From: Chiloscyllium plagiosum
Taxonomy: Eukaryota
DNA: 64,000 bases
Assembly (NCBI RefSeq): GCF_004010195.1
Contig: NC_057755.1
Coordinates: 5,873,474 to 5,937,473, forward strand
Direction: 5' to 3'
In this document: one piece after another, positions 1 to 60,434 of the stretch
How positions within the stretch are numbered: position 1 is the stretch's first letter
How the letters are laid out: each line of letters opens with the position of its first letter
Program-made: the position numbers and the translations under genes
The notes under the pieces: model-generated
What the model was told of the DNA's origin: nothing
Database searches by the model: none
Seen by the model: the letters and a program-made list of their open reading frames with translations, nothing else

Positions 1-330
1 AGTGACTCAGAGATAGAGAGTAGAATAAAGTCTGTGATTTAACTGTTCATAGTATCGGGCAGTTTCATTCTTCTGTGGCTGACGTATGTTGTAGAATTTT
101 TATATTGTAATATGACAGTAACGGACCATAAGGATTACACAGAGTCAGAAAACATTTTTGAAAATGTTGGTGATATGCTTCAGGTTTTGAAGTGCTGCAC
201 AAACACAATTATTTATGGGGTGTCTCAGTCTAAGTTTAGAGAAGAGTTAACAACGTTGGTGAAATTTCCAATTACATTAATCAATGAACTGATTCATGAA
301 CAAAACTGGACCATCTCAGAGGCGTATTGA
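1..330 (+). pseudogene. GPCR copy 1: GPR139-like class A receptor, 3' part (ICL3-TM6-TM7-helix 8); 5' part lies outside the window
   Basis: Frame 1 reads SDSEIESRIKSVI*LFIVSGSFILLWLTYVVEFLYCNMT...MLQVLKCCTNTIIYGVSQSKFREEL. In-frame TAA at 40-42. The same ExESRRKS/SGSFILLW and CCTNTxIY motifs recur in the other copies. Confidence 0.85.
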
Positions 331-469
331 AATTCTTCCACATTATGAATGAGGTATGTAACTCATTCTCAAAAGTGAACCACACCGATAAGTAACAGGC
401 ATTGTTTAATCTACTTTGTGTGGAGATACATTAGAAAGTTAGAAGAACGGAGCTATTTTATGAAGCATT

Positions 470-682
470 CTCTATGTGTGACTGTGTGTTTGTGTGATTG
501 TATGTGTACGTGTGAGAGAGATACTGTGTCTGAAGATGCATCAGGAGAGTATTTTGTGCATCTGTCTGTGTGCATTTCCGCATGTGAATGTATGTGTGGT
601 TATATGTGCATGTATGTCTGTACGTGTGTGTGTGTGTGTTTATAAGTGAGTGTCTGTGTGTGTCTATACACGAGTGTGTGAG
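470..682. repeat. degenerate (TG)n microsatellite region
   Basis: Runs of tgtgtg with interruptions. Confidence 0.8.
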
Positions 683-1129
683 ACAGTGTTTACCTTGTGA
701 TGAGTCATCAAGTTGCAAAATTAGTCACGTTACACAGAACTAAAGGGATAATTGCAGCTGACATCTCACCCATATATAGGGATATATACATATATATATA
801 ATTTTAGACATGCTTTTAAAGACTGTTTTCTTTTTATTTCCAACGAAAAATCATTGCTCTCTGACCATCCATATCCAGATGGTGCTGAGGGCGATTCCTG
901 TGGCACAAGACGATGGTAAGGGCTTCAGTACATTTATGGATCATGATCAACTGATTCCTACAGTTCTGGTGTATGAGTTGGTGATTTCACGGAGCAGGAG
1001 CGATGTTGTCTCTTCAGGCCCTCTCTGTCATTCCCTAATGTCACAGTTAACTGTGGTTTCCCTGATTTTTATGTTTCCATCTGTTGATGATAATATTCGA
1101 TTCCTTAACTTGACAAGACTTTGTGTAAA

Positions 1130-1329
1130 TTTAGATCAGATTGCCTACAGTCAGGAAACAGGTCATTTGGCGCAACAAGTCCATACCGACGCTCTGAATA
1201 GTAACTCACCCAGACCCATTCCCATAGCCTGTGTTCATACCTGACCATTACACCTAAAACTATGGGCAATTTGGCATGACCAATTCACCTGACCTGCATG
1301 TCTTTGGATTGTCAGAGGAAACCGGAGCA
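1130..1329 (-). mobile_element. HE1/V-SINE-like fragment (3' half)
   Basis: Reverse complement matches the SINE at 15661-15958 (ccggtttcct...tccaaagacatgcaggtcaggtgaattgg...ttgccc). Confidence 0.75.
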
Positions 1330-1334
1330 AATAG

Positions 1335-2507: not shown

Positions 2508-4545
2508 TTCAGGAACAGTTGTTGCGAGTGATGCACAAATGCGTTCCTCTGAGACAGGCAAGAAGGGGTAAGATAAATGAACCTTGGATGACGAGAGCAG
2601 TGGAGCTTCTTGTCAAACGAGAGAAGGCCACTTACACAAGGTAGAGGAAGCAATGGTCTTGCTCAGCTCTAGAGGATTACAGGCAGGCTAGGAAGGAGCT
2701 CAAAAATGGTCTGAGGAGAGCCAGGAGGGGGCACCAAAAAGGCTTGGCAGGAAGGAGTGGGAGAATCCAAAGGCATTTTACACGTAAGAGAATGATCAAA
2801 GAAAGAGTAGGGGTGATCAGGGAAAGCATAGGGAACTTGTGTATAAAATCTGAGGAGGTAGTGGAAGCCTTAAATCAGTTTTTTTGTTTCTGTCTTTACT
2901 GAAGAAAAAGACCTTGTACTGAATGAAACCATTGAGGAGCAGGTAAGCATGCTGGAACGGCTAAAATTTGAGGAACCTGATGTGCTGAAACCTTTGACAA
3001 ACATTAAGATTGACAAGTCACCAAGACCAGACCAGATTTGTCCTCGGCTGCTTTGGGAAGCGAGACATATGGTTGCTTCATCCCTTGCGAAGATCTTTGC
3101 ATCCTCGCCCTCCACCGGAGTCGTACGTGAGGACTGGAGGGAGGCAAATGTAATTCCTCTCTTCAAGAAAGTAAATAGGGAGGTGCCCGGCAATTACAGA
3201 CCAGTCAGTCTCACATCTGTCATCTGCAACATGTTAAAACGGAATCAGAGGAATTGGATTTATGACCATCTGGAAGAGCATGACTTGATTAAAGGCAGAC
3301 AACACGGCTTTGTGAGGGGCAGGTCATGCCTCACAAATCTTATTGAGTTATTTGAGGATGTTACTAGACAAGTTGGTGAGGGTCGAGCGGTGGATGTGGT
3401 TTATCTGGACTTCAGTAAGGCATTTGATAAGGTTCCCCACGGTAGGCTCGTTCGGAAGGTCAGGAGGAATGGGATACGGCGAAATTTAGCTGTCTGGATA
3501 CAGAATTGGCTGGTCGACAGAAGACAGTGAGTGCTCGTGGAAGGAAGGTATTCTGACTGGAAGTTAGTAGTGAGTGGTGTTCCACAGGGCTCTGATATTG
3601 GGTCTTTACTCTTTGTAATTTTTATTAATGACTTGGATGAGGAGATTGAAGAATGGGTGAGCACGTTTGCATACACACGAAGGTTGGAGGTGTCGTTGAC
3701 AGTATAGAGACTGTTGTAGGCTGCAGCGTGACAGTGACATGATGCAGAGATGGGCTGAGAGGTGGCAGATGAAATTCAACCTGGATAAATGGGAAGTAAT
3801 GCATTTTGGAAGGTCGAATTTGAAAGTTGAGTACAGGATTAAAGACAGGATTCTTGGCAGTGTGGAGGAACAGCGGGATCTTGGTGTGCAGGTACATAGA
3901 TCCCTTAAAATTACCACCCAGGTGGACAGGATTGTTAATAAAGCATATGGTGTTTTGGCTTTCATTAACAAGGGGATTGAGTTTAAGAGCCGTGAGATCT
4001 TGTTGCAGCTCTATAAAACTTTGGTTAGACCGCACTTGGCATACTGTGTCCACTTCTGGTGGCCTTATTATAGGAAAGATGTGGATACTTTGGAGAGGGT
4101 TCAGAGGAGGTTTACCAGGATGCTGCCTGGAATGGAGGGCTTATCTTACGAAGAGAGGTTGACTGTCATTGTAAAAAAGAAGAAAGAGAGGGGACCTAAT
4201 TGAGATGTACAAGATAATGCGAGACATAGATAGAGTTGATAACCAGAAACCTTTCCCAGGCCGGAATTGTTAACACGAGGGCTCATAGTTTTAAGTTGTT
4301 TTGTGGAAAGTATAGAGGGGATGTCAGAGGCGGGTTCTTTACGCAGAGAGTTTTGAGAGTATAGAATGCGTGGCCAGCAGCAGTTGTGGAAGTCATTGGG
4401 GATATTTAAGAGACTACTGGACATGCATATGGTCACAGAAATTTGAGGGTTCGTACATTAGGTTTACCTTAACATGAGGATCAATGGTCGCCACAACATC
4501 ATGGGCTAAAAGGCCTGTTCTGTGCTGTACTGTTCTATGTTCTAT
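2508..4545 (+). mobile_element. CR1 LINE, 5'-truncated, disrupted RT ORF2
   Basis: ORFs 2949-3530 and 3739-4203 carry PGNYRPVSLTS, QHGFVRGRSCLTNL, YLDFSKAFDKVPH and LYKTLVRPHL. Ends in a (TTCTATG)n tail. Confidence 0.95.
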
Positions 4546-5179
4546 ATTTATATTCTCCCAAATTATCCACTGTCTGCCAGATATTTTCCGTCTCACTCTC
4601 TCCATCCCTGCAGCTCTTCATACTTCTTATCATTGCAAAAGGCTTCGTAAGCTATCATCGAGTCATAGAGATGTCCATCACGGAAACAGAACCTTCAGTC
4701 CAACTTGTCCATGCCAAAAGATCATTATCATAATCAGAGAGTCATACAGCAGAGTGGAGACCCTTGACCCCATAGAGTTTGTGTTTATCTAACTGCAGTA
4801 ATCCCACTCTCCAGAACTTGGCCTACAGCCTTCAATGCTGTGACATTCCAAGTGCTCACCAGGTACCTTTTACCGATTATGATGTTTCCTGCTTGTGTTG
4901 CCCTCTAAGACAATCCATATCAGACTCCTACCACCTTTGAGTGGAAACACTCTTTTCAATCTTCTCCAAACCTCCTGAGTTTCACATTAAAACAATGCTG
5001 CTTGTCATTACCCGTTCAACTAACTAGAACAGCTGCTTTCTATCTGCCCTGTCACAGAGTCCGGTAGCACGGAAACAGGCCCTTTGGCTCGAACGTGTCC
5101 ATGCCGCCGAATATGTCCTTCCACACGAACCCCATTTCCCTGAACATGGCAGTACATTGTAGGAGACTAGGGCAGGGTG

Positions 5180-6797: not shown

Positions 6798-6953
6798 AGT
6801 GCAGTATTTGGAACAATGATTCGAAACCCACAGCAAAATATGTTCGGCCAAGTTTTGGTTTTAATTGGATGTCGTAATCTCTGCGTTAATTACAGGCATG
6901 AAATTGAACTTGCGATGTCGCAACCACTCTGTGCCACTGGCAATTCTACGGGG

Positions 6954-6959
6954 TATAAA
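6954..6959 (+). promoter_or_regulatory. possible TATA box of GPCR copy 2
   Basis: TATAAA about 80 nt upstream of the exon-1 ATG at 7035; positional evidence only. Confidence 0.3.
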
Positions 6960-7034
6960 TCCAACTCTCTGAGAATGTGCTGCCTCAGAGATTACCCCCA
7001 GCAGCAAACGGAATGGAACTGTTGATGGAAAATT

Positions 7035-9221
7035 ATGCCAATATTTTCTGTGGTCAGGAAAGTCTATTACTTGATGCTTGCCATCATTGGTGTTCCCAGT
7101 AAGTGTATGGTATAATGAGTTGCATGATCTTTTCTTTCAGTAAGCCTCTTTGTTTGTATGTGGTGAGGAATAAGATTGACAGGACATGTCAGTAAGGAAG
7201 AGCAAACTGGAAGAAAGGCACCGAGATTTGTTTGCTGGCACAAAAGAGTCCAAAACAAAAAAAAAAGTGTCTGTCCTAATGACAGGGTAACGGAAGTGAA
7301 TAGTATGCAGCAAAGAGAATCTGAGAGGGATAGAATAACTGGGAGAAATCCTCTTCCTTATCAGTATTTCTGATTCGTAGACTGAGGGATGAGATCCTGT
7401 ACAGCGAGGAGTTAGGAGGGGGATAAAATATGAAGTATAAAATACAAGCATAAGAAAGTGTATTTGTATTCATTGTTGGATTGCTGGTGCCATTGGCTGA
7501 ACCCAACATTTATTGTCTGCCCTGAGTTGCCCTTGAGCGGGTGGAAGTGAGCTGTCTTCGTGAGCCACTGCAGTCCATGTGCTGTCTGTAGACCAACAAT
7601 GCCCTCAGCCATGGAAATCCAGGATTTCAACCCAGCGACCATTAAGGAATGACCAATCATTTCTCAGTGGTGGTAGTTTGGACGGAAGGTAGTTTTCCCA
7701 AGTGTCAGATGCTCTCGTCGTTTTCGATTGAAGTGGTCTTGGGCCTGGAAAGTGCTGCCTGAGGATCTTTGGTGAGTTTCTGCCGTGAAAAACAGCCTGG
7801 GTTATGCCAGAATATTTTGTGCAAGATGGAACATGCTGCTGCTAATGAGCCTCCGTGAGGAACGGAACGAAGTTAAAGGTGACAGATGAAGGCCAACAAA
7901 TATTATACTTTGACAGAGATAGGAAAGGATTGTTGTGTGTGTTTGGACCTGCAACAGGAGAGGAATAAATATCTATGGGAACAGCAGTGTGATGATCAAT
8001 CAAATATTCCATGTAATCAAGAGGTCCACATAATCAATGTAAAAATAAGCACTATGTAATTAAAACAGTAATGCGGACAGGATACATACCTCTGATACAT
8101 CATAAATCCCTGAAACGATAATTCGACTTTTTTCTTTACAAAAACACTTCCTGGCAGAGAGCCTGTCAACTATACATTGGACTTTGTGCTATTTGGGGAG
8201 AAATTGATTCAAAACTGAAATAACTTCTGATATTTCGTTGACTATTTAATTGAATATGAAATATATTAACATTGAGGTAATTAAATGAAAAAAGCTACAA
8301 TAATTGGACAGAGTAATGCAGTTCATTTCACTGTATTTAAGGTATATAAGATTTCTGGTTTATCGAGTGCGCTAATTCATAAGGTTCCAGTTACAGCAAG
8401 GTTCGTTATATTGAAATTAGCAGTCCCAGTGATGTTTTACATCCAAACTCAGTAAAATTATGTCATGGGTATTTTGGACTGAACCTGGGCTCCGAGATTT
8501 GATGATTTAAATGTAACTTGTTTGCACCAACCGGACGTTCATGCCTTAAGCGTTGTGATTTGATGTAACATGTATGTTGCACTTGTAGCTTACAGTATAT
8601 TTTTCTTTACTTCTTCCTCACATGCAGTTAATTTATTGGCAATTGCCATTCTATCCCGAGGAAGATGTGGCCTATCTTCATGCACCACACGCTATCTGAT
8701 AGCAATGGCAATAGCCGATCTCCTGGTCGTGGTAAATGAGTTCATACTGACACAAGTCAATCACTATTATTTTCATGTATCTTACCTGAACATCACTCCT
8801 GTGTGCAGTGTTATCTATGTGCTGAGTCGTGCAGCCAGAGACTGTTCAGTCTGGTTCACTGTCACTTTTTCCTTTGATCGATTTGTAGCTATTTGTATCC
8901 AGAAGCTCAAAACAAAATATTGCAAAGCGAAAATTGCCGCTCTGGTTCTGTCAACAACTTGCATTCTGCTCTGCGTCAAGAATATCCCCTTCTATGTGAC
9001 ATTTCAACCTCGAAAGATCATTAACAACGTCCCATGGTTCTGTGAGATAAAGTCGTTCTGTACATATCTTCCTACACGTTGGGCTTATGTTGGTGGGTTT
9101 AAGTTGCTGCACAAACACATTTATTTATGCAGTGACTCAGTCCAAGTTCAGAAACGAGTTCAAAACTGTGTTGAGATATCCAGTTAAATTATTGACACTG
9201 TTCATCAATAAAGAGAACTAG
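7035..9221 (+). pseudogene. GPCR copy 2: two-exon GPR139-like receptor, join(7035..7098, 8628..9221), with TM5-TM6 deleted
   Basis: Exon 1 MPIFSVVRKVYYLMLAIIGVP+A ends at a gtaagt donor (7099). A pyrimidine tract plus cag acceptor (8625-8627) is in matching phase 1. Exon 2 reads (I)NLLAIAILSRGRCGLSSCTTRYLIAMAIADLL...TPVC...FSFDRFVAIC...NVPWFC, then jumps near 9060 into another frame: HIFLHVGLMLVGLSCCTNTFIYAVTQSKFRNEF...KEN* (TAG 9219-9221). Confidence 0.9.
7480..7900 (-). mobile_element. old non-LTR retrotransposon 3' end (CR1/L2-group, distinct from the main CR1 family), in the intron of copy 2
   Basis: Reverse complement resembles the 3' ends at 17790-17895 and 22320-22390 (gcagctcac...tcaagggcaact...aataaatg). 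Confidence 0.55.
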
Positions 9222-14610: not shown

Positions 14611-15660
14611 TGTAGCGTGATTATGCAGGAACGCAACTATAGCATTCTGGAAGAACTGATGGTAGTTTACTTCTGCACATCCTGGCTTCTGCACATTTCT
14701 TTCTCAATGAATCTGAGTAGTCAAGAATTTCCTTTGTCGTATCTGTACACAGTGTTTCTTTCACAGTGAATCTTGTTGCTCAGTATCAGTGTTCAAGGAA
14801 ATGCTCAGAGACAGTGAGCTGTGTGAATATCCATTGTGCCGAGTGCTTAGTGATTCGAATAAAAAGGAAAAGCAAACGTAATGATTAAAAAGTCACAATT
14901 ACACATCGAAACAGAAAACTCAACTGGCAGGTTATTACAGCTTAAACAAAAACAACATTCAAGGCCTTCACAACGAAGAAGGTTTATGGAATGTTGAAAA
15001 TGTGGAAGATTCAAAGTTGGCCGGTGGGTGGTGACATATAACAAGAGGAAAAACCCGGCACGGATTTTTTTTGAAGCGGTGCCAGAAATGGAAGTGAATT
15101 ATGGAAAAAACATTTGAATATTGCGTTATTTGTTGACAGATGCTTATAGCACAGGTCAAACCATTGCCTGAGTGAAATATTTTAATATTTCCATATTGTT
15201 ATGGATGCCATCAGTAACTGAACACATTCACATGAGGAAATAAACTTATTACTGAGAGAATCAAATGCGAAAATGCATTAGAAATTGGAAAACGTTTTGA
15301 AAAGAAACACAAAACAAAGACTCAGGCTTTTGGACAACAACAGCCTTTACAGATACTCAGTCTCAGTGAATTATTATTCGAGTGGCAATGCATTCATTTC
15401 TTGCACAACTAATTACAATCAATTTGAGTGATGAAGTGTTCTGTTTCTAATGCTGAAGACATATTCTTCTTTTCAGTTAATGCAGAAAGGAAAATGCCAC
15501 TAACTCTTTGCGCTTTTTGCATGATCTGTTGCATAAAATTGCAAATCGAGGTCAGATCTGTAGCTTATTTACATAGTTTAAATTTTGATTAATGTGTATT
15601 TTACACCATTGATTAACTCCTCTCTGAACTTAGTTTGTGTTAGAGCATACATGCAGGTGT

Positions 15661-15958
15661 GGGCGGCACGGTGGCACAGTGGTTAACACTGCTGCCTCAC
15701 AGCGCCAGAGACCTGGGTTCAATTCCTGACTCAGGTGACTGACAGTGTGGAGTTTGCACATTCTCCCCGTGTGGGCTTTCTCCGGGTGCTCCGGTTTCCT
15801 CCCACTGTCCAAAGATGTGTAGGTCAGGTGAATTGCCCATGCTAAATTGCCCGTAGTGTGAGGTAAATGTAGGGGAATGGGTGGGTTGCACTTCGGGGGG
15901 TCGGTGTGGACTTGTTGGGCCGAAGGGCCTGATTCACACTGTAAGTAATCGAATCTAA
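15661..15958 (+). mobile_element. full-length HE1/V-SINE-like tRNA-derived SINE
   Basis: A-box tggcacagtgg, B-box ggttcaattcc, V-domain ggagtttgcacattctccccgtg...ccggtttcctcccac, CR1-like 3' end and aatc repeat tail. Confidence 0.92.
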
Positions 15959-17374
15959 TTCAGAAGCTGTAGCATGAATCCAAGTTCTTGAAAGACAAAT
16001 GTTGGATAGTTTGAAGTCTTGTTTTCATAATGATAACTAACTTCAGAGTACGTGAATAAAGAGTGTGTGACATTTGTCACACAGAACACGATAAAATTAA
16101 CAGACACGAAAAGAGTAACGTGATGGATTTTCTCCTGTTTAGCACCTCTGGATCATGACTATTATTTCCAGTTCCCTGGTTCTGAAGGCGAGAGAGAATG
16201 TGGTTGACTCTTATAATATGCGTGAGAGTCAGAGCATTGAAAACCAAAATCAACAGCATTGGAAGAAGTGCTATAATTACAATGCCAATCCATTCATTCA
16301 CTTTCCAAATCACGATGTATAATAGTCGGAAATTATGGCGCAAAGCCATGGCACATTGTCAATAACAATTCCAGGAGCTAATACAAAATACAAAGCAATT
16401 GACTGCACACAGCAAACCACACTCACAATTAGTGTAACCAGACGTGACTTTCTGTTATTGCAATGTCTTGCTCTTAGCTTCTGGCAACAAATCGCTACAA
16501 ACCGATCAAATATGCAAACAGCTGTGAAGCAAACTGAGCAGTCCAGGGCTGCTAGGCGCAGAACAACTCTCAAGATACATGCAGGAGTGATGTACAAGAA
16601 AAGAACTGGGAAATAGAGATTATTGATTCGGTTCAGTTTGACATCAAGGATCACAAAGTAGATATGCTGCAGACATTCCCAACAAATAGTGAGTGATGCA
16701 TTTGGAAAGCCCACAACGGCCTCGATTCAGGATCACAGTTCCTAAAAAGTTAACTGGATGAAAAAAAGTACAGAAACGTACACTTCTTCATGACTGGAGT
16801 CAAAACGAAAACATCAGGTAGATGCATTTGGTAAACCGCACCAATTGCCTCAGATTAATATGTTAAATCATTAAAATGATACATAATGAAAAGGTACAAT
16901 GAACTTTTGACTCAAGTAAACCACAATTAAATAAGTACATGTTGTGAACAAATAGACAAACCGTAGAAATAAATAAATAAGGACCAAAATTCGAAAGGAA
17001 TGAAACATCTTCATGAAAATCTGTCATCCGACAGATTCAGCACAATGATTGTTAGATTCTTCATGCTTAACAGACTGTTATTGGACAAAAACAATTACGT
17101 ACAAATCGGAATAAGGACCCGTTAGGGATCTAGTACATGAGCAGTCACGACACTAAATATTTTTTGAGTTGGAACTGAGATGGCCGAATATTGGGGTTAG
17201 ATTCTTGGACTGGCCTGTCACTGACCGGACTTCCACTCTTTCTCATTTATGATGATCACAAAACTGTAGCCTCTCTTAATCAGTGACGGCGCATCAAGCA
17301 TTGGAATACATGAGGATCATCGTGGAACTCAGTGAATGCGGTACTTTTCCAGAAGAGTAATTTTGTAATTAGAA

Positions 17375-30191: not shown

Positions 30192-31069
30192 TCAATGTAT
30201 AAATGAGGAAACCAGATATTTCAAATCCCACTTCATTTTCGCTCTGAACGTAGACTGAGTTGCTGCATGAATAAATGTGTTTGTGCAGCAAATTAAATTC
30301 TGTAACATGATTCCTAAATCTTGAAATATAATTTCCGACTCTGTGTCACATGTCCCGCCAATGGTACAATGAAAGAAATGTGCAACAATCATCAACCACA
30401 GAAGGATAAAACTAGCAGCTATGGTGAAAAGCAAAATGACAGGCTTCCTCCTGCTTTCCATCTCTGCGTCACTGTGTGTCGCGCTATGGCTGTGGGCTTT
30501 CAGATCCGTACAGACTCGGCTCAATGCTGAAATGTGCTTTGCATTCAGAATATTGACCAGCAGAATTCGTGGGAATGAGAGCAGTGGGCTTAAAGCCTGA
30601 TGTATGCTGTCATAACCTACCCATTCAGGATCAGATAAAGCCTCGTTTTAATGTTACAAAACCATCATACATGATAAACTGTTGTCCAAGAGTCATAACA
30701 AAAATAGATGGGAATGTTTTTTGATACAGAGCAGAATGAAGGTTTTTGATAGCACCACAGCTGCAATATTCTTTGTGCAAAATAGTGCTCATAGTTCACG
30801 GCAAATAACAGCTACAAATCGATCAAAAGTGATGGTGAACCAGACAAAACAGTCTGTGACTGCATATCACAAGGCACATTGGAGAGTACACACAGGAGGG
30901 ACTTTGAGTAAGGACACTGGGGCTTCATGAAAATACATAACCTCTGTCACTATGACATGAAATGTCATGGCCAGGTGATCTGCCAATGCCAGAGCTATAA
31001 GTTGGCGAGTGTTGCACTTCAAAATGGCACATTGTCCACGGGAGAGAATCCCAACCTCCTGCATATTAC
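30192..31069 (-). pseudogene. GPCR copy 4: GPR139-like exon 2, multiply disrupted; exon 1 not found
   Basis: Acceptor tcttccttgtttcacagacag (cag at 31072-31070), then NMQEVGILSRGQCAILKCNTRQLIALALADHL...PPVCTLQCAL*YAVTDCFVWFTITFDRFVAVIC...SDAEMESRRKPVILLFTIAASFILLWL...LICCTNTFIHAATQSTFR. Confidence 0.88.
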
Positions 31070-34000: not shown

Positions 34001-37000
34001 TGAAGGCATTGCTTTGCTACAGGTCGGATATTGGAGAGACAACAACCTTAGCGACAGACCCATGGGGCTTACCTGTGACTGGAAATGGAGGTGCTGCCAA
34101 ACATTTTTCATGAGATGCATTTGGTGCTAAAGGGATGAAAGCGTAAGAAGGAAGCGTCGAGCAGATTATTGGCTTGCATGGTCAGCCATGTTCCAACTGA
34201 ATGATTGTGAAGCGTCGATGGGCCGAGAGGGGTACACCTGCTTTTATTTACTGTTTTGCTCTGCAAATCAGAAAACTGACAGAAATGGTAATAATCATTT
34301 TGGATTTCAATGAATGAAAATCGTAGTGACTAAGAATCCAGAGAATGGTTTCAACATTTTACATTCCTGTCATTCAAGGAAATGTACATTCAGATCTGAC
34401 TTGGTTGAATATCAGTAAATGCACTTGCCTCCGAGATAAAAAAAAGTGTCACTGCAAAATTCGTGGATAATATAAAGTTTACAGTACAAAAAGTGCGGTT
34501 CGATGCTCAAGTGTTAATAATAAAATTAACAATTATTACATTGAGTGACCACATTGTTATAACGAGCATTAAATATCTTTAAATAGCTGTCTGCTATCTA
34601 TCCTGCCTGTTACGTATCTTCAGATCTTGAGATGATTGAGTCTTAATTTCAAACTCCACCTGTCCCTTGCTGGAGTTCAATCCAAACTCTTTTTTTTTCA
34701 AATCTAATACTGTTAACACGAAGACTGGCTCACCTGGTCACAAGGGATTCCTTGTAGCATTTCTAAACATATTCCCATGGACAATAACATTCCCCTCCAT
34801 AATTACATATATAACTATTCAGAATTTAAATGCACCTAAGTTTGCAGACCACTGCAATATTCCTTATACCACCATTTTTCAATTGTCAGAGATATAATAC
34901 ACAAGTGGAAATGACGTTCTAATTTTCAGTTGAACTATAACGTCACCGTGGAGCTGTCAGAGCATCGGTTGTCGTCTCAATGGCGGTGAGTAGCGAGGTT
35001 TTATCCTGAGGGTCACCATGCACCAGGTGAAGTGACTGGTTGAGAAGGTCAGTGCTTTATCATTCCCTCAGTGCAGGAATTGAATCCATGCTGTTCGCAT
35101 TTCTCCAAGTGGACAAGCGAGCTATCAACCGTAAGTATTAACAAATGATCCATATGATCATGAACCTTTTCGACTCGCATCTCAGCATGAATTGCAGTTT
35201 CTTATTTCCAAGACACATTTCATGCTCGATTATCAAATTTGCTATAAAAGTGAAGTCTTTGTGGAAATCATATCAATTTTCATTGAAGGGGATGCAATGA
35301 GCCATAAGCAACAAATCTTCTAAAGAATGACACGACTGCTAATTTTGCAGATAAAGGATATTTCATACACTTCACTCGCAGCCTTTGAATGTGCCAGCGT
35401 TTTGATGTAAGTTCTCTGCACTAGAAATGTTCATTGTATTTCTCTCTCCCCACACAGATGCTGCTAGATCTGCTGACTTTCTCCAGCAATTTCTATTTCC
35501 CTTTGTTCATTGTCTCCAGCGTCGACAGTTCTTCATTTTAATGAATTAATGTATCTGGCTCTCTAATAAGTTGCACTCAATCATTTTGTGAAATATTAGT
35601 GCTGACACTGAGTCCTTAAGATATGTGTCTTGACGAGGTGCGATTTCAGAGAGATTCTTGATAAGTACCAAAGGATGTTTGAAGATGTTAAAATAAAATA
35701 CTTGTGAAGCTATTGTTTTTTATCCTGTTAGAGCTCTAACAATAGAAGCATGCAGAATGGGTGTGGCCAATGTTATGAAGATGTGGGTGTACTCTACCTT
35801 TAAGCAAGTTAATATTTACAAATACTACCAAACAGCACCAATCATTCTCAAAAAAAAAGATTCTGCAGCATTTGGTCAACCAACTTGATTAGTGGTTGCC
35901 TGGAGACAAAAATAAATCCAAATTCAGCATATCAGTTTAAATTAAACAATGAAAATATTTCCAAATTCCAATCAAGTTTGAATTTAGTATATTGACAATC
36001 TTAAAAACCAATTACACAATCCGATGCTGGTGCGGCATATGATTGGTGTAAATTGAACAGTTGAGAGGAGAACCGCCAAGCCCGAAACGTTGCTCTCTTA
36101 AATGAACCTTTTATAGATCAGTAACCTGTGAAGCTGAATCCCCAAGAAGAAGAAACGAAAACAAGAATACTGAGAAGAACTGAAAGCTGCCTGGCTTTGA
36201 GATAAGAAGTTGAGTTTTATAAGTCTTAATCGGAATTTTACTGGACGAGTATTGTAGAGGGGAAATTAAAAGATAGGTTCAGGGAAGAAAGTGCAAATAG
36301 TTGTTAGTTAATTATTCTCTGCTGTATTTAAAGAGATAAAGTTGTTATTTTTTATTTTAAGTCATCTTGGTCTCTCGACTGGCATAACTCTTTTCTGTGT
36401 TGCTGGTTCAAGTTAAGCAGGAGGGTTTCCCATGTGTAATAACAGTTTGGTGCTTCGTCGTCCGGGATTTGAACTTGTTTCGACAGATTGAATAGCTTTG
36501 TCGTTACGAAAAATCCCATGATGTTTAAACACTTTCAGGTTAATGTCCTCGTTCTTCAAAAAATAATGTTGGCTAGACAATTTGTTCACTTTCAGTGACG
36601 TGCGGATGATTCACTACAAGTGAGAGAAATGGCTATTAAAATTGCCAAAGCGATTCCGAGATTTAAAGATGATGCTCAAATTTGCCAAGAAATTTAAGAA
36701 GGAAAGATAACAGCCATTCTTTTAGAATTAGAAAAGAAATCAAATTTGTGTTTAACCAAGGACAAAAGTGAAGTCGAAATTCGAATCGATTTACACAAAG
36801 ACGTAGGTATATCAGAAAAACATACAAGTGAAGTAGAGGTAGAAAAACTTAAATTACAATTGATGAAAATGGTGTTAGAAGATAAACAAAGAGAGAATGG
36901 AAAGAAAGAAAGCAAAAGAGAGAGGAAGAAGGAGAAAGAGACAGAGAAGAGGGGGAGAGAAAAGAGAAAGTGGAAGAGAGAGAAGAAAAGGAACAAAGGA

Positions 37001-43939: not shown

Positions 43940-44065
43940 TAGAACATAGAACATAGAAACCTACCCCCCCTTAATTTAAAGCTATGCCCCCTTGTAATAG
44001 CTGACTCCATACGTGGAAAAAGATTCTCACGGTCGACCCTATCTAAACCCCTAATCATCTTGTAA
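43940..44065 (-). mobile_element. tiny CR1 insertion in the integrase region of LTR element 1
   Basis: (TAGAACA)n tail and CR1 C-terminal sequence, flanked by agtca (43935-43939 and 44066-44070). Confidence 0.8.
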
Positions 44066-46934: not shown

Positions 46935-47842
46935 AAAACCTGGTGGCAACTGTGATTTTCTCAGGAGGAAGTTGAGCTTTTTCAAAGTGTATTTCAGTGT
47001 ACATGCTGGCCACGTAACAGCAAATCTGCTATTCATGCACGTTAAAGTCACAGTGTTTCAAATTTTGTACAAAGAATTCCCACATTCATTCCTTTCTTAT
47101 ACTGTGGTTATCAAGTTTATATTGTACATGAGCTGTCGCAATGTCTGTCAGTGTGGAATACTGTGTGTTTCACCATTGACCGATTTATGACTCCATGCTG
47201 TGGTAAACGGAAAACCAGTATGGCTAAAAGAGAACTGCGGCCACGTTCATAATACTTATAGCATTTCTGCTATAATTATCGTATGTTCTCTTTTGCCTTG
47301 CATGTGAATATCATCACTGAAATCTCAATTGTCATGAGGAAGTCTGTCCAAGTGTGTTCTGTCGCAAATCGACTGTAGGTGGAGCCTATGAGACAATACA
47401 ATTTCTTTAAGTTACATTAATTCCTTTATTTTTGATAATACTAATCAAAGATTTGATGGCCATCACATTATAATATGCAACATTAGTCACAGCAGACTCC
47501 GGGCACAGAAGCCTGAAAACCATGAGCGACATAGAGATGAACAGCCGAAGGATGTTGATTGTTTTACTTTTGATGTTGTCAGGTAGTATTATACTGCTAA
47601 ATATGACATCTGCAATGTTTTCTCAGATCAATACCTTGGCTGCGCTTCATCGAACATATTTGACTAACCCTAGCCACTTTGGCACTCAGGGTGGGTATCT
47701 GTTCATTTACCTTGGTTCTTGTACAAACCAATGTATCTATGCAATGACTCAAACCAAATTTAAGGCAGAGTTAAAAAAAAAGGTTTTGCAATCCCCTTGG
47801 ACATTTTCCTTGATAATTGTCAACGAATTCAAAAATCACTGA
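46935..47842 (+). pseudogene. GPCR copy 5: GPR139-like exon 2, multiply disrupted
   Basis: Acceptor tccctttcccgcag (ends 46934), then NLVATVIFSGGS*AFSKCISVYMLA, frameshift, TANLLFMHV...FPHSFLSYTVVIKFILYM, decayed ttgaccgattt (DRF), SDIEMNSRRMLIVLLLMLSGSIILL...LGSCTNQCIYAMTQTKFKAEL. Confidence 0.87.
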
Positions 47843-53009: not shown

Positions 53010-53290
53010 CACTACAACTTCTCAATCCTCTGAGAGGATCGTCTTCGTCTGATGTTGGCCTGTTGTGCATTGTTACTTGCACCATTGCTTTCGGCCATTT
53101 CTTCATTCACACAATTTTCAAACTCTCGAATTCCCTGCCACCCTGTCAGTTTCTTTCCTTTAGACACTTCTTCAAATTTATGTCTTTAGCCAAGCATTTA
53201 GTATTCTGTCCCTATATCTCCTTACACGACTTGAGCCATGAAGATTATTTTATAAAATCTTGCAAGGCATTGTACAAGTTGCTGTTGAAC
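53010..53290 (+). mobile_element. ancient L2-like LINE 3' end
   Basis: tctcgaattccctgcc...tcctttagacacttcttcaaa...ttagccaagcattt...aaggcattgtacaagttgctgttg resembles vertebrate L2 3' ends (recognised from memory). Confidence 0.5.
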
Positions 53291-56174
53291 CAAGTCGATT
53301 GCCAACTATGCAAAGACGGTGGTTATTTCAGTTTCAGAACAGAATGGACATATTCATTCGAACAGGTATTTGCATTCGTGATATGTATTGTCACATTCAT
53401 ATACTATCTACTACTATGATTCATACATTTGAAAAAAAATTCCGAAAGAGCAACGTTCGTTAATTGCTAATTTATCTTCTTTAGGAATCCAACTAATCAC
53501 TGCAAAGCTGTGGTATATTTTGACATCTCCGAATGTATGCTTGGGATCAAGGGCATATATTTTAATTCTGAATTCTAGCTTAGTTCCCAATCAGCTTTGC
53601 TACTTGATTTATAATACGCAAATTCTTTTACAGGCTACTGTTCAATTTATTCAAGAAATTTGGTACAAGTCTCCCTCGTTGCAATTTACAGTAATCAAAA
53701 GGAGGAAATTGACGAGTGTGGCGAACAAAATAGAACCATGACACTTATAGTACAGCTCGTAGAATCGTGGAGCTTGATTACAAGTGTGTTAGCCCAAGCA
53801 GAGCTAATACAATGAAAATAAATTCATTTCCACTACGTCTTAGCACCAAAATCAAAATGGGACTCCCACTGCAGATGTTGCATTTCTACTTCCAATACAA
53901 TATGTTAATTGAGTGTCAAACACGGTTCAGTTTTGTTTTATAAGTAAAATGAAATCTATTCTAGAATCCTCTAAGTAAAGATCTTTTCAGTAGTCATAAC
54001 AGGGTTGAAAGTGAACCCTACTTATGCCTGCTTTCTCTGATTCCTACTCAGGTGTCTTCACTTAACCTTTTGTTAAACAAATTCGAACAAACAATTATTT
54101 TTTTAAAGTAAAAATGAAAAGTATAATGAAAGTACGTGTCAAAATTAAAGGCTGTAATGTTAAACGCGTTCACAACAAAGCATTTTGTTTGTGATTCAAT
54201 AAAATACTGAACTGGTGAGGATGTGGATGATTATCTTAGCCAATTTTCAATGTTTTGTCTTACCTGCTTATATCAAATCAAGCACAGGAATTACAACACA
54301 ACAAATATTATTTGGATCAACTCAGTAAGAGTGGTGCAAGCTTATTATAAGCCTTGGAACAAACAAGAGCTTGGGTCTTTTTTCATCAACGTTGATATTA
54401 GTTTTTTCACTCCAATCAGTACTTGCGAACCAGTATGAATGTGACTACTGGAATTCCAAAGGCAATTCTGTTGTGGACTAGTAAGGCAAAAAAGAATGGT
54501 GGACGATTTAGTTGATTTCTTTAATTGGTATTGTCGACCCAGAGAGATCCAGTCAGACGAAGTTTCGAATTGTACTGCTAATCTGTTTAACAAAACTTTG
54601 TGTCGCTCAGGCAGACAACACTTGAAGTCAAGTGAGTACACTGAATCCCACGGAATCTTGGGAAGGAGGCATATGACCACGAAGATCATGTTGAATGTGG
54701 ACTATAAGTATTACATGAATGATTGGGAGAAAGAAACAAATGTTCATGATTGTCCTGCATAGTGAAGCATCAAGTCCAGATGTTGTGGAGTTTCAATGTG
54801 CTTCAAAATAAATTACATACTGACGAAGTCATTGTGGAGATTAATAGGTGAGTGAGATGCCCACCTCAGGCGCAAATAACCAATTGAAAGATTCGTTGCA
54901 GCAGAATGAGGACATAGGCAGGAATAGCATGGGGAGGACAGATACTCTTGTGCATGAGGATACAGTAGGGAATGTTGTTCCGATAAAACAGCAGCCCTAC
55001 AGGCCTAATGATCTCAAAGCCAAACAGGAAGTAGATGGAATGCTCAACGAAGATATCATCGAACCGAGTCAGAGTGAGTGTAGTTTGCTGATTGTTGTAG
55101 TCCCAAACCTCAAGGGATGAATTGATTTCATGAGGAATATCGAAGTCAATGCCATAAGAGAATCAGACGCCTATCCAATAGTACTGCATCCAGAAAGATA
55201 GACAAGCCACTTCCATCACAAATTTGGACATAATGCATGGCTGCTCGCAGGGACCTTCATCAGAGAGAGTGAAAGACGTTTCTTTATTTGTTACCGTATA
55301 TGGTTTATATTAATTCAACGTGATGCACTTTGCAATGATGAACAAACAATATTCCAAACACTCTTGCACAGAGCTGTAACAGGATTAACAAATTGTGCAT
55401 TTTATTTGGATGATGTACTGATTTTCAGCGAATTATAGAAAGATCACATGACACAGATGTCATCGCTCTTTGAGCAAGCAAACCTGTTAGTAAAGTTATG
55501 CAGAAACAGAATTCGGGAAGGCAGAGGTGACGTTCATGGGGCATAACATCAGGTACGGAATGTTGATTCCAAGGAAAGCAAAGACAAATTCCATCGATGA
55601 CATTCCGCGACCACCCAAAGTAAAAAAAGTGCTTTATGTTTTGGGATGAAGGGAATTCTGCTGGAATTCTGTTCCAAATGTCAGCAGTGTGGCAGCTGAG
55701 CTTACTAAAGAAGAACACAAATTAGATGGACAGAACAACGCCAGGAGGAACCTAAGAATTTAAAAGCAGTATTAACCACTGCATCAGATTTAGCTGTACA
55801 AAGCTGTTTGAAACACTTCAAAGTTGCAATCGATGCTAGCAATACAGAAGTTGGAGCTGCACTGCTACAGGAAGATGATGATGGAATTGATCGGTCAATG
55901 GGCTACCATTGAAAGAAACTCAAACGCATAATTGAGTTTGGTACTGGCCTTATAACATGTTCATGTGTATGTGCCAAACAATGTGTTGGAGATGATTGCG
56001 TACCCGAGTTCCAATCCTCTTACATTCTTGGAAAATAAATAAGGAGCAAATGTGAGACAATTTCAGTGGAGTATTGTGTTACAGACTTCTAATTTATAAA
56101 TTTAACGTGTTGTGCACTGTAAAATTGTGATAGCAAATGCGTTATCAAGGATTTAAACAAAATTTGTGGATAAG

Positions 56175-56706: not shown

Positions 56707-57157
56707 TAAGGTTGGACAGATTCCAATGATATATATGTGTTCAGTAATTATGCAGAAAAGTATAACTTAGATAAATGGCCAATGCATTTTATCGAAATAA
56801 AATGAAGAGTTAACAAGAAAACCGATCTTTTCGTTATGAATTTCTGTATTTTTTTAACCTATGGGGAAGTGTTATGAAGTTGAAGGCAAGTAATGTACTT
56901 TTAAGAGAGAGGAACTGTCACTGGGACAGAAACGCATGGAATACGAACATCTTGCTCGTCCAAAAAAAAATTAGGAAGCACTCTCCACCAAGGATACCTT
57001 TTCATATGAAACACATTCATTGTTAAAAGAAAGACAGGGAAATGTTCAGCCGGAAGAGGGAAGACGGAAGAAGACAGCGGCTGTGTCATTTTGAAATTAA
57101 ATTTATGTAATTTTAATGTGTCTGAACGGAGCAGAGTATTGCTGCAGAGTTTTCTTT

Positions 57158-57461
57158 TTAGATTACTGAAAGAGTAGAATCAGGTCCTTCGGGCCAACAA
57201 GTCCACACCGATCCTCCAAAGTGTAACCCACCCAGAGCCATTTCCCTCTGAACTACGCACCTAACACTGTGGGCAATTTAGCATGGCCAATCTACCTGCA
57301 CATCTTTGGACTATGGGAGGAAACCGAAGCACCCGATGGAAACCCAGGCAGACACGGGAAGAATGTGCAAACACGACACAGACAGTCACCCGAGTCTGGA
57401 ATTAAATCTATGCCCCTGGTGCTGTGAGGCAGCAGTGCTAACCACTGAGCCACCATGCCGC
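57158..57461 (-). mobile_element. full-length HE1/V-SINE-like element inside the 3' LTR of element 3
   Basis: Reverse complement begins gcggcatggtggctcagtggttagcactgctgcctcacagcaccagg. Confidence 0.9.
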
Positions 57462-58364
57462 TCTTGGATGCAGACTGTAAGCAATTAAGGGAAGGGGGGG
57501 GCGTAGACCTGCGAATACTTGTTGTCTAGTGCTCACTTTTAGAGTTAAAAATAAATTAAGCGTTTTTCCTTTAAATACTGGAATTTTGATGTTTTCTGTC
57601 AGTCATATTTTAACATTACCTGGCGAGACGAGCTTTTCTGGGTGTCTGGGTTAAGTAACAAAGGGTTTCACCTCCGTGTCTGAACACTACAATCATATCA
57701 AAAATTGCACAACTTGTTGAGAGTTTATGTTGACATCAGAAACAAAATTTCTAACCTCACATTGGGGACTCTTGTTAGTTTTGTCTCTTCTGTGACATAC
57801 AGAGTCCTAGACAGCACCTTTTCTTGCCTTTAACGAGGCATAAACAGTGAACAGATTCAAATGGAAAAATTGGGAGCATAATATTCAAACTAGGATTGCT
57901 TCGAAGATAGGGACAGAAGGAAACTATTCAGCCCGTAGAGATAAACACTTGCCTTTAGCTCACATTCCCTAATATATTTCTTCCGCTGAAATCTATCTTT
58001 CTCAGCTTTAAAACTAGCAACTGATGCGACATCCACTGCCATTTGAGGAAGGTAGCTTGAAATCTCTCATACCATTTGTGTGCAGAAGTGCTTCCCAACA
58101 TCTCTCTTGAATGGTCCGGCCCGAACGCCGAGGTTATATGTCCCATAATTGTAGAAGCCCCAAACAATACAAATAGTTTATCTTTATGTACCCTACCATT
58201 TTTCCTGTAAATAGGTTGGAGACACTAAATGACGAATCTATCCAGTAATCATTCACTGAAACACTATATTGCTGAAAGACGTTAGTTGCCTATCAGGTCA
58301 GCACAAGCCTTCAGTGGAGCATTCTGATCAGAAACATCCACTCATCAACTCCTAACACTTATCT

Positions 58365-58580
58365 TAGCCCATCAACCTACGTATACATCGCTGCTCACTA
58401 CAGTTTAATTTAACATGTCCTCAGCTGCGCATCTTTGGAGTATTGGTGGGAACAGAAGCTCTCTGACAAAACCCAAACAGACATGGGGGAGAACGTGTGA
58501 AAGTCACACACACAGTCCATTGATGCTGGGATCGATCCCAGGTCCTTTGTGCTGCGAGACAACAGGACTAACCACTGGGA
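58365..58580 (-). mobile_element. decayed V-SINE
   Basis: Reverse complement has cagtggttagt...gacctgggatcgatccc and a V-domain remnant. Confidence 0.65.
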
Positions 58581-59543
58581 TACTATGATTTTTGCATGCA
58601 CCCTAATTCTCTTCTGACATATCTTGTGCCACTTGCACCAGTATCCTAGTCAACTTGTAATTCCTTACTCCCACCCCTATGACTCTGCAGTTTCAGATCT
58701 AAAATCATTTCTTTGTGATCATACATATTCCACCTCAAATTCAAACTAACTAACAACATGTTCCTTCCTGAAATCCGTCCTAAGATCTGTTCTGAAGAAG
58801 TGTCACCAGACCCGACACGTTAACTCTAATTTCTCTGCATAGACGTGCTGAGATTTTCCAGCAATTTCTGTTCTTGTTTTGGATTTACAGCATTTGTATT
58901 TTTTTTCAGGTTTAACAATTCCTGCCTGCTTGTTTTTCTTTTTTATCAGTCTGTAGGAGTCCAGACACTGAAGAGCAAAGAAACAGTTGCTGACATCCAC
59001 GTGGTCATGGTCAACTGTCACGTATAAAACGTATGTTCTCTGCTTGTGTCCTGAATGCAAAGTGATGGGTTTCAAAAGGAGACACGCCCCACACTCGCCG
59101 CACGCAGGTTAAATAACATTTCCAGCTGCTTTCTGTTCTGAGGAAGGATCACTCGAATCGAAATGTCACTCGGTTTCTCAATCTGCGAATGCTGAGAGGG
59201 CTTTAGACTTTATCCAGCGCATTCTGCATGTTTTATGCAGAAGCAGCCTCTTAGATACGGCTTGGTACAAAATCACTCACCAGCTCATCAGACACGAACT
59301 GATTTCTGGTGACAAATCTTTTTGACGAGAAGAACCAATTTTTGTCCCGGCGTGAGAGATAGAAACAGAGCTCTCTGGATGGTGGAAATATGAAACAACA
59401 AGAGAAGTGTACTGAAGAAACTCAGCAGCCATAGCAGCATCTGCAGAGAAAAAGAAACACCTAAAGCTGCAAGTGCAGCGTTCCTCTTCATCAGAATCGA
59501 AACGGCAAACATTATACACAGAAGCACGGGCAGAAGTTGAGTT

Positions 59544-60434
59544 TTAAGTAGGATTCGTAACTTCTCGTTGCATTCTGAATGCTTTGACCATAAGAAAGAG
59601 TAGTATCAAAGAATATTTCCATACCTTACGTAACTCTGTGTATGTAGAAGAACTCAAGGAGGTGAACAGATGTCCAGTATCAGTGGTATTGTAGGTAGGG
59701 CTAGTATAGTGCATTTGATCAAGCACAGTCAAACTTTTGCTCAAAGAACTCACTGCAGATATCATATGCAGCAGTAAAAAAAAAAACTGCCAGACACCAT
59801 AACGAGTAAAATCATGTGTTTTCTTCGGCTTTTCATCCCTGGATCACTCTGATTTTCAACATTCTGTGCCCCGAAGCCTCCTGTAAGCATTCCTGCTCAT
59901 TAAAATGTGCCCGGCTGTCAAACTATTTCAAGGCAATATCAAAATGAAAGTAATCCATTTAACTAAAATACTTTGCAACCTGAAGTGCGTTACACCTACA
60001 GGTATTGTGAGAAACATGACATTGGGAAGATATCCCCATTGAATATTATTAATTGCATATTTATATTAATAAGCAGAACAAAAGTGGATGATCTCTACAT
60101 ATACCACAACTGAGATAAATATTGTAACCGTGTTTAGCAGTTCTCACTGTGCCATGCTTGGTTTTAAGTTTGCAACAACTCAGAGCCATAAATCGGTCAA
60201 AGGTATACCACACTGACAGATAGACATTCGTTCAGCCGAAGTACAAAATAAGTTTGATGACTACAGTGTGGGAGAGGAATGATTGTGGAAATTGTTTGTT
60301 CAAAAGTTGAAGCAAAATGACATGAATGAGCATGATCACGTGATCTGCTGTTACCAATGCAAGCATGTGGGGTGAAGTGCATTCAGAAAGACTGGAAGTT
60401 CTTGTCAAGAGAATCACAGTTGCGAGGAGATTTG
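59544..60434 (-). pseudogene. GPCR copy 6: GPR139-like exon 2, disrupted; closest to copy 5; exon 1 not found
   Basis: Acceptor tcttcctttcttacag (cag at 60437-60435), then NLLATVILLTRTSSLSECTSPHMLALVTADHVIM...FPQSFLSHTVVIKLILYFG*TNVYLSVWYTFDRFMALSCCKLKTKHG...DPGMKSRRKHMILLVMVSGSF...TGHLFTSLSSSTYTELRK; the NxxIY segment is missing. Confidence 0.86.

What the first reader, a model, noticed from the sequence alone, without database searches (positions are those of the whole stretch)
1..60434. Tandem cluster of six divergent orphan GPR139-like GPCR genes, all disabled: a candidate lineage-specific birth-and-death receptor repertoire
Seen: six paralogues in 60 kb (+,+,-,-,+,-) share, where the region survives, ILSRGxCGLS, DRF at the end of TM3, NVPWxC, DxEMxSRRKS, SGSFILLW and CTNxxIY-xTQxKFR. 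Each has its own private lesions. Established: mammalian GPR139 and GPR142 are single-copy aromatic amino-acid-sensing receptors, and cartilaginous fishes have few classical olfactory receptors. Inference: clustering, high divergence and frequent pseudogenisation are the signature of chemosensory or immune repertoires. This window may be a slice of a large, functionally uncharacterised receptor family acting as an alternative ligand-sensing system. No intact member is visible here, so function cannot be shown from this window.
Basis: partly seen in the sequence, partly recalled or inferred. Interest (0 to 1): 0.8.

Follow-up and report, generated by a model that had tools for sequence, protein, structure and literature searches.

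The report
Huge undescribed shark receptor gene family
These six damaged receptor genes belong to a very large shark-and-ray gene family whose members keep the same predicted signalling face but differ widely in the predicted ligand pocket, so the family likely acts as a set of chemical sensors that is missing from current counts of shark smell and taste receptors.

Summary
The six copies are real, in the stated orientations, and all are disrupted in this assembly. Two corrections. Copy 2 is broken only by a 314-nt deletion that three other DNA runs of the species appear to lack, so it may be intact in the population. The copies fall in three old subfamilies rather than one recent tandem burst. 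Intact relatives are abundant: 702 database proteins; the best 120 all come from sharks and rays, 69 from horn shark alone. They are not GPR139 orthologues: human GPR139 scores 56 bits against the family profile, while an apparently single-copy amphibian and sturgeon receptor scores 176 bits and is the sister clade (100/99 support). That places the family near the unstudied 'GPR210' receptors. Horn shark paralogues vary in the predicted pocket (identity 0.56) and keep their intracellular loops (0.89); the amphibian orthologues show the reverse (0.98 versus 0.69). This is the pattern of a ligand-diversified birth-and-death repertoire. Tissue, ligands and G protein are untested; chemosensation is the best guess (about 50%). 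Databases list the genes, but eight literature searches found no paper describing the family.

The parts
1..330 (+). Copy 1, 3' part of exon 2 (ICL3 to C-terminus); premature stop at nt 40-42; the rest lies outside the window
   Evidence: 67% identity over 99 aa to catshark P0041
7035..7098 (+). Copy 2, exon 1 (start codon to the end of TM1's G-x-P), GT donor, phase-1 intron; TATA-like box about 80 nt upstream
   Evidence: Exon-1 profile hit E=5e-6; open frame of 163 codons when spliced to exon 2; TATA-like box
8628..9221 (+). Copy 2, exon 2; single 314-nt deletion at 9054/9055 removes the end of ECL2, TM5, ICL3, TM6 and ECL3 and shifts the frame
   Evidence: 82% identity to intact whale shark P0001; deletion size; junction not seen in the displayed contigs of three other runs
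15578..16753 (-). Copy 3, exon 2; frameshifts and a repeat insertion in TM7
   Evidence: 48% identity over 290 aa to P0045; groups with ray and horn shark P0133/P0159, 98/95
15670..15957 (-). SINE-like repeat inserted in TM7 of copy 3
   Evidence: Insertion in the frameshift-aware alignment; three related copies in the window at 69-78% identity
22621..22690 (-). Copy 3, probable exon 1, with an in-frame stop and a GT donor (intron about 5.9 kb)
   Evidence: Exon-1 profile hit E=7e-7
30192..31069 (-). Copy 4, exon 2; 3 stops, 2 frameshifts; exon 1 not found
   Evidence: 55% identity over 282 aa to P0080; exon-1 searches blank upstream
35327..35398 (+). Copy 5, probable exon 1, decayed; intron about 11.5 kb filled with retroelement fragments
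   Evidence: 70% identity over 266 nt to the exon-1 region of copy 6
46935..47842 (+). Copy 5, exon 2; 2 stops, about 6 frameshifts
   Evidence: 42% identity over 297 aa to P0171; sister to copy 6, 100/98
59544..60434 (-). Copy 6, exon 2; 3 stops, several frameshifts
   Evidence: 42% identity over 305 aa to P0171; 66% DNA identity to copy 5 over 824 nt
62002..62071 (-).
   Evidence: Exon-1 profile hit E=6e-6

Best explanation
The six genes are damaged members of a class A GPCR family with many copies in sharks and rays, whose sister lineage in amphibians and sturgeon appears single-copy, and the family likely works as a repertoire of chemical sensors in which each paralogue is predicted to bind a different ligand and signal through a shared G protein. 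Shown: family size, clustering, tree position, pseudogenes beside intact relatives, variable pocket positions with conserved intracellular loops. Inferred: the ancestor had a GPR139-like pocket for amino acids or short peptides, because the amphibian sister keeps F3.33, W6.48, N7.39 and a basic 6.51. After duplication the pocket diversified. In the largest subfamily it became acidic (D3.37, D5.39, D5.42), which would favour amines or basic peptides. Copies are gained by duplication and lost by point mutation, deletion and repeat insertion; copy 2 looks like a loss that may still be segregating. Untested: the tissue (nose, skin, taste buds or gut assumed), the ligands and the G protein. My odds: ligand-diversified repertoire about 0.8; sensing of external or food-derived chemicals about 0.5.
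For: Size: 702 of 866 candidate proteins at E<=1e-5; all of the best 120 are from 15 shark and ray species, 69 from Heterodontus francisci. 49 of those 69 lie on three contigs (31+10+8). For comparison, cartilaginous fishes have 43.8 (20-62) complete OR+TAAR+V1R+V2R genes (PMC10869828). Tree: family plus window copies form one clade (100/98), sister to the amphibian+sturgeon clade (100/99). That clade gave one cluster for each of 20 amphibian genera plus one sturgeon among 25 hits. Pocket versus intracellular-loop identity: 67 horn shark paralogues 0.56 vs 0.89; 48 divergent representatives 0.30 vs 0.54; 19 amphibian orthologues 0.98 vs 0.69; 46 members of a second apparently single-copy relative 0.78 vs 0.54 (permutation p<=0.0003 in the stated direction for each). 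67 of 67 horn shark paralogues differ in a 13-residue core-pocket string, against 3 strings in 19 amphibians. In five cross-species pairs of nearest relatives the pocket is kept at least as well as the rest (116 of 126 vs 850 of 974). Mean pocket charge is -2 in horn shark paralogues and +3 in amphibians. Asp5.42 is an amine contact in teleost TAARs (PMC4695389 abstract).
Against: No expression evidence: a single-cell RNA run gave 7 partial reads at 90-95% likeness from about 2% of the run, which shows nothing. Pocket positions are only slightly more variable than other outer-membrane positions (0.56 vs 0.65; p=0.056 by identity, 0.023 by residue class; 48 representatives p=0.149 and 0.011), so relaxed constraint on the outer half is not excluded. 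dN/dS on intact genes could not be computed. c5-c6 look neutral (dN/dS 0.85, pN/pS interval 0.73-1.10), and the c1-c2 interval spans 1. Catshark olfactory neurons are reported to be Go/TRPC2 microvillous cells with robust V2R expression (PMC10116579 passages), so the nose does not obviously need another family. The coding intron is unlike ORs, TAARs and V1Rs (recalled). Pocket positions come from recalled generic class A numbering, not from a ligand-bound structure. Three of the five cross-species pairs were drawn from 90%-identity clusters.
Confidence: 0.5

Rival explanations
1. The repertoire senses danger or microbial and tissue peptides on immune cells, skin or somatosensory neurons, working like mammalian MRGPRs or formyl peptide receptors rather than like odorant receptors.
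For: The same sequence signature (variable pocket, conserved inner face, clusters, pseudogenes). An acidic pocket suits cationic peptides, as in MRGPRX2 (recalled). Cartilaginous fishes are reported to lack MAS1 and related receptors (PMC8455134 passage). The closest solved structures are peptide receptors.
Against: No sequence kinship to MRGPRs or FPRs: the nearest relatives are the GPR139/GPR210 group. No expression data either way.
Confidence: 0.25
2. Copy number grew mostly by drift in repeat-rich shark genomes; the outer half of the receptor is under relaxed constraint, and most copies are redundant or on their way to loss.
For: 6 of 6 copies here are disrupted in the assembly. The region is rich in retroelement fragments. 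Pocket versus other outer-membrane positions is only borderline different. c5-c6 evolve nearly neutrally.
Against: Dozens of full-length paralogues per species keep intracellular loops at 0.89 identity. Subfamilies are shared by sharks and rays. pN/pS is below 1 in 5 of 7 copy pairs. Pockets are conserved in cross-species pairs.
Confidence: 0.12
3. The receptors serve internal signalling: either a set of receptors for endogenous peptides or metabolites in brain, pituitary or gut (like GPR139 and GPR142), or a ligand-independent identity code in neurons.
For: GPR139 is a brain receptor and GPR142 a pancreas and gut receptor for L-Trp and L-Phe (PMC7318219 passages). The wider group includes invertebrate MIP/sex peptide, FMRFamide, proctolin and myosuppressin receptors (PMC8514136 passages).
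Against: Receptors for endogenous ligands tend to stay low-copy with conserved pockets, as both apparently single-copy relatives do here. 67 different pocket strings in one species would need an implausibly large set of endogenous ligands.
Confidence: 0.13

Closest known systems
RefSeq/GenBank models named 'probable G-protein coupled receptor 139' (some 'neuropeptides capa receptor-like', 'vasopressin V2 receptor-like') in sharks and rays
   Same: Same family: copy 2 is 82-83% identical to a whale shark model; all six copies nest among these proteins.
   Different: These are automatic best-hit names. My searches found no paper that delimits, counts or studies the family.
'GPR210' orphan receptors (Rinne et al. 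2019, PMC6504862; passages read)
   Same: Described as three sets of coelacanth, gar and fish genes near GPR139/GPR142. I find three such bony-vertebrate lineages (P0230, P0233, P0257), which group with the shark family at 95/92.
   Different: That survey had no cartilaginous fish (0 mentions of shark) and described low-copy genes. I could not map its Ensembl ids onto my lineages, and its taxon lists do not include amphibians, so the A/B labels are provisional. The P0233 lineage has its own separate shark members (P0283, P0286).
Human GPR139 (and GPR142), L-Trp/L-Phe receptors
   Same: Best hit among solved structures by sequence; two exons; W6.48 and the N7.49-x-x-x-Y7.53 motif without proline (alignment).
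   Different: Only 55.6 bits against the family profile, below amphioxus and unnamed invertebrate-type receptors at about 100-118. 24% identity in the structure alignment, against 70% between human and zebrafish GPR139. 60 of 67 horn shark paralogues match only 1 of the 4 residues needed for Trp/Phe activation.
Vertebrate chemoreceptor repertoires (OR, TAAR, V1R, V2R, T1R, T2R)
   Same: Works-like resemblance: clusters, many paralogues, pseudogenes, variable pocket with conserved inner face. Asp5.42 as in clade III TAARs.
   Different: Not a member by sequence: only PF00001 is hit, there is a coding intron in TM1, and the nearest kin are peptide and amino-acid receptors. Sensory expression is not shown.

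Membership tests
Class A (rhodopsin-like) GPCR | 7tm_1 domain and seven-helix fold | tested here: met
   PF00001 above the curated cut-off for 3 of 3 intact family members scanned; AlphaFold model with seven long helices, mean pLDDT 70; TM-score about 0.7 to peptide GPCRs
Class A (rhodopsin-like) GPCR | Conserved N1.50, D2.50, C3.25 plus ECL2 cysteine, D-R-Y/F, P5.50, W6.48, N-x-x-x-Y | tested here: met
   Invariant or nearly invariant columns in alignment A1; positions checked; numbering recalled
GPR139 / GPR142 orthologues | High sequence conservation with human GPR139 (70% human-zebrafish) | tested here: not met
   24% identity to 7vug_R; 55.6 bits versus 176 and 168 bits for other vertebrate lineages with the same profile
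GPR139 / GPR142 orthologues | Trp/Phe site F3x33, H5x43, W6x48, N7x38 | tested here: not met
   Horn shark paralogues: 1 of 4 in 60, 2 of 4 in 6, 3 of 4 in 1 of 67; amphibian sister 3 of 4 in 19 of 19 (site from PMC5430874 abstract; mapped through the alignment)
GPR139 / GPR142 orthologues | Two coding exons | tested here: met
   First exons with a phase-1 intron at the end of TM1 found for c2, c3, c5, c6; GPR139 has two exons; identity of the intron position with GPR139 was not tested
GPR139 / GPR142 orthologues | Groups with GPR139/GPR142 in a tree | not tested
   No GPR139 or GPR142 sequence was returned as a stored protein, so neither is in the trees
'GPR210' group (Rinne et al. 2019) | Clusters with the coelacanth/gar/fish orphan sets near GPR139/142 | tested here: inconclusive
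   Shark family groups with three bony-vertebrate lineages including a coelacanth protein (95/92), but the paper's Ensembl ids could not be matched
Known chemoreceptor families (OR, TAAR, V1R, V2R, T1R, T2R) | Family-specific sequence signature | tested here: not met
   Only PF00001 hit at E<=0.001; no odorant, vomeronasal or taste receptor among the 60 structures listed
Known chemoreceptor families (OR, TAAR, V1R, V2R, T1R, T2R) | Sparse expression in sensory neurons or taste cells | not testable with these tools
   One RNA run laid, 7 partial reads, tissue not given
Birth-and-death multigene family | Many intact paralogues in clusters together with pseudogenes | tested here: met
   69 horn shark clusters, 49 on three contigs; six disrupted copies here; no genome-wide count was possible
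Birth-and-death multigene family | Neighbouring copies closer to genes of other species than to each other (no concerted evolution) | tested here: met
   c2 with whale shark P0001 (100/100), c3 with P0133/P0159 (98/95), c5+c6 with P0171 (100/99); AU p=1.3e-43
Birth-and-death multigene family | Positive selection at ligand-contact codons | not testable with these tools
   No DNA of intact members was available; only protein-level variability was measured

The most novel reading that the evidence does not exclude
Sharks and rays have a seventh, overlooked family of vertebrate chemoreceptors, born from a single orphan amino-acid/peptide receptor and larger than all their known odorant and vomeronasal receptors together. 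It would resolve why animals with large noses seem to have only about 44 olfactory receptor genes.
Probability: 0.33. Interest if true: 0.92.

Novelty: new variant of a known kind. Interest (0 to 1): 0.68.

Why it matters
Cartilaginous fishes are described as poor in GPCRs and in olfactory receptors (PMC8455134, PMC10869828) despite large olfactory organs. One subfamily search already gave 69 distinct proteins in one shark, more than the highest reported total (62) for the four known olfactory families. If these genes are sensory, the textbook picture of shark chemosensation is incomplete and a new receptor family was recruited independently. If they are immune or somatosensory, they could fill the role of the MRGPR-type receptors that sharks are reported to lack. 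The question is directly testable with existing tissue RNA-seq. The apparently single-copy Xenopus sister gene gives a tractable route to the ancestral ligand. The six copies in this window are themselves mostly dead, so their value is as a pointer to the family.

Tried and rejected
Whole-genome count: no genome is held for this window. Run search: no RNA holder listed, which is no evidence on expression. RNA lay: 7 partial reads, uninformative. Summed contig depth on conserved motifs is high (1,253-1,490 contigs laid per run), but it is not a copy number and some of it falls on intron repeats. Shared promoter among c2, c3 and c6: no similarity in 700 nt upstream, a TATA-like box only in c2, and O/E-like or homeodomain-like matches at no common position. 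Rfam: 0 matches. Exon 1 of c4: not found. Recent local tandem origin: rejected. GPR139 orthology: rejected. Foldseek did not separate class A subfamilies (GPR139 ranked 42nd). ESM Atlas returned clusters of the same name, then FMRFamide-receptor-like clusters, as leads only. Literature: searches found no description of the family. The whale shark genome supplements (24 files, one cut when stored) hold no 'GPR139' and only a 70-protein, 35-taxon GPR142 orthogroup. The catshark sensory paper's supplement could not be read; it may hold tissue expression for these genes.
Full report
Observation. The window is 64 kb of repeat-rich DNA with three N gaps; no whole genome is held. tblastn with 120 relatives finds six receptor loci with orientations +,+,-,-,+,-, and 282 queries add no seventh. 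Frameshift-aware alignment to the best templates gives 67, 82, 48, 55, 42 and 42% identity for copies 1-6 and shows lesions in each. The copies are 25-52% identical to each other. The closest intact protein is from whale shark (83%), so the host is inferred to be a carpet shark.

Gene structure. The genes have a short first exon ending in TM1 at G-x-P and a phase-1 intron. First exons were found for c2, c3, c5 and c6; that of c4 was not found, and that of c1 lies outside the window. Copy 2 has canonical splice sites and an open frame of 163 codons up to its deletion. Copies 5 and 6 are an inverted pair, 66% identical over exon 2 and 70% around exon 1. Copy 3 carries a SINE-like insert in TM7 with three relatives elsewhere in the window.

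Copy 2 may not be dead in the species. Its only visible lesion is a 314-nt deletion. I laid three DNA runs (three samples, two studies) and one RNA run on 6800-9500. In each DNA run the contig reaching the breakpoint matches up to 9054 and then has 92 letters that do not fit. None of the 24 pieces displayed (3,992 were not shown) bridges the junction. In X1 and X2 the depth of that bin equals that contig alone (6.54 and 5.50); in X3 it is higher (37.2 against 12.6), so other contigs lie there. The 92 letters were not displayed, so an undeleted allele is likely but not shown, and whether it is fully open is unknown. Six substitutions checked in the coding part create no stop. A private allele and an assembly error are both possible.

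The family. A search with residues 20-175 of the copy 2 frame gave 702 of 866 candidates at E<=1e-5; only the best 120 were listed, and all are from 15 shark and ray species, nearly all named 'probable GPR139'. Horn shark supplies 69 clusters at 90% identity, spread over 20 contig lengths, with 31, 10 and 8 on three of them (contig length used as a stand-in for chromosome). A profile search of 1.84 billion representatives gave 132 hits at E<=1e-30. Of 19 high-scoring hits looked up, 18 are named from sharks or rays and one (P0200) shows no species; I recall its accession series as elephant shark.

Not GPR139. With one profile, scores are: amphibian P0230 176 bits, coelacanth P0233 168, amphioxus 118, anchovy P0257 110, unnamed invertebrate-type proteins about 100 and human GPR139 55.6. 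The P0230 lineage gave one cluster for each of 20 amphibian genera and one sturgeon among 25 hits of 1,675 candidates, with no teleost or amniote; this search is word-limited. The P0233 lineage appears as about one cluster per species across sharks, bony fishes, amphibians and reptiles (120 of 145 hits listed). An IQ-TREE analysis of 33 rows (17 family proteins chosen for diversity, copies 2-6, 11 outgroups; copy 1 left out as too short) gives one clade for the family (100/98), sister to the amphibian and sturgeon lineage (100/99). A 64-row FastTree agrees, with weaker support for the sister link (88). True GPR139 and GPR142 are not in these trees. Rinne et al. 2019 named such bony-vertebrate orphans GPR210 without sampling sharks (passages); the match of my lineages to their sets is provisional. 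The window's copies fall in three subfamilies (c1, c2, c4; c3; c5, c6), and one clade for c2-c6 is rejected. The cluster is therefore old and mixed.

Signature of ligand diversification. I assigned 33 pocket positions by recalled generic numbering anchored on conserved residues, consistent with the predicted helices. Mean pairwise identity, pocket versus intracellular loops plus helix 8: horn shark paralogues (67 of 69, full-length only) 0.56 vs 0.89; 48 divergent representatives 0.30 vs 0.54; amphibian orthologues (19 of 20) 0.98 vs 0.69; P0233 lineage (46) 0.78 vs 0.54. Each difference has permutation p<=0.0003 by identity; sites and sequences are not independent, so these values are approximate. 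Against the reading: pocket sites are only marginally more variable than other outer-membrane sites (p=0.056 by identity, 0.023 by class in horn shark; 0.149 and 0.011 in representatives), and the gap is large in TM2-4 (0.50 vs 0.76) but small in TM5-7 (0.61 vs 0.66). All 67 paralogues have different 13-residue core strings. In five cross-species pairs the pocket is 116 of 126 identical against 850 of 974 elsewhere; three pairs were preselected for similarity. Among the window's own copies, pN/pS intervals lie below 1 in 5 of 7 pairs; c1-c2 is inconclusive and c5-c6 looks neutral.

Likely chemistry. The amphibian sister keeps three of the four GPR139 residues needed for Trp/Phe activation (PMC5430874 abstract) and has lysine where GPR139 has R6.51. 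Most horn shark paralogues keep only W6.48 and have aspartate at 3.37 (59 of 67), 5.39 (56) and 5.42 (57), with mean pocket charge -2 against +3. Asp5.42 binds amines in teleost TAARs (PMC4695389 abstract). This suggests cationic ligands for the main subfamily; other subfamilies vary at these sites (5.42 is Asp in 14 of 48 representatives). This step is inference.

Mechanism and rivals. Best reading: a repertoire of chemical sensors with diverse inputs and a common G-protein output, turning over by birth and death (0.5). Rivals: an immune or somatosensory repertoire like MRGPRs or FPRs (0.25), internal peptide or metabolite signalling (0.13), drift with relaxed constraint (0.12). No expression or ligand evidence separates the first two. 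In catshark, olfactory neurons are reported as microvillous with V2R expression (PMC10116579 passages), and the 50 top genes of a brain plus olfactory library held no GPCR (PMC11979771 passage), which is expected for sparsely expressed receptors and so says little.

Novelty. The genes are in public annotation under a misleading name. Eight searches of the open-access library found no paper on the family; subscription papers and unread supplements are not covered. Papers seen: passages of PMC6504862, PMC7318219, PMC8514136, PMC8455134 (plus supplement searches), PMC10869828, PMC10116579, PMC11979771 and PMC12294341 (nothing relevant); abstracts of PMC5430874 and PMC4695389. Earlier AI notes of this scan describe the same family in other windows, with about a thousand copies claimed; I could not check that number. 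Verdict: real, a new variant of a known kind (a large lineage-specific GPCR repertoire from an orphan lineage), interest 0.68.

Noticed in passing
window 9054/9055: The 314-nt deletion in copy 2 seems absent from three other DNA runs of the species: a segregating pseudogene or an assembly error.
   Followed up: partly
proteins P0230, P0416-P0435: An orphan receptor found as one cluster per genus in 20 amphibians and in sturgeon, with an almost invariant predicted pocket (0.98) that resembles the GPR139 Trp/Phe site; no teleost or amniote hit in a word-limited search. A good de-orphaning target (Xenopus).
   Followed up: partly
proteins P0233, P0283-P0400: A second GPR139-named lineage, about one per species from sharks to reptiles, has Ser/Cys instead of W6.48; two models are named as TMEM183A isoforms, which hints that the gene lies beside TMEM183A.
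   Followed up: no
window 15670-15957, 57158-57461, 2130-2393, 1131-1329: SINE-like repeat family at 69-78% identity, one copy inserted in TM7 of copy 3; resembles the shark HE1 SINE (recalled, not tested).
   Followed up: partly
window 36000-46000 and 51000-56000: Decayed LTR-retrotransposon-like fragments (reverse transcriptase hit at 38479-39048, integrase-like and gag-like frames by eye), partly inside the 11.5-kb intron of copy 5.
   Followed up: no
window 2874-4555, 10495-11219, 12585-13844, 18219-19427, 25400-27000, 49066-50660: Many CR1-like LINE fragments (reverse transcriptase hit at 2874-3527; family name recalled); two of the three N gaps lie inside them.
   Followed up: no
window 24880-25452 and 27180-28550: Frames resembling Penelope-like retroelements by eye; no Pfam hit at E<=0.001 for the two pieces scanned.
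   Followed up: partly
window 7528-7618, 7710-7800, 7983-8073: Three short stretches in the intron of copy 2 attract very high contig depth in all three DNA runs; an unidentified high-copy repeat with no second copy in the window.
   Followed up: no
proteins P0086, P0121, P0133, P0139: Several database models of the family contain partial tandem repeats of TM1-TM4 or foreign N-termini; some may be gene-model fusions of neighbouring copies or repeats, which would distort counts.
   Followed up: no
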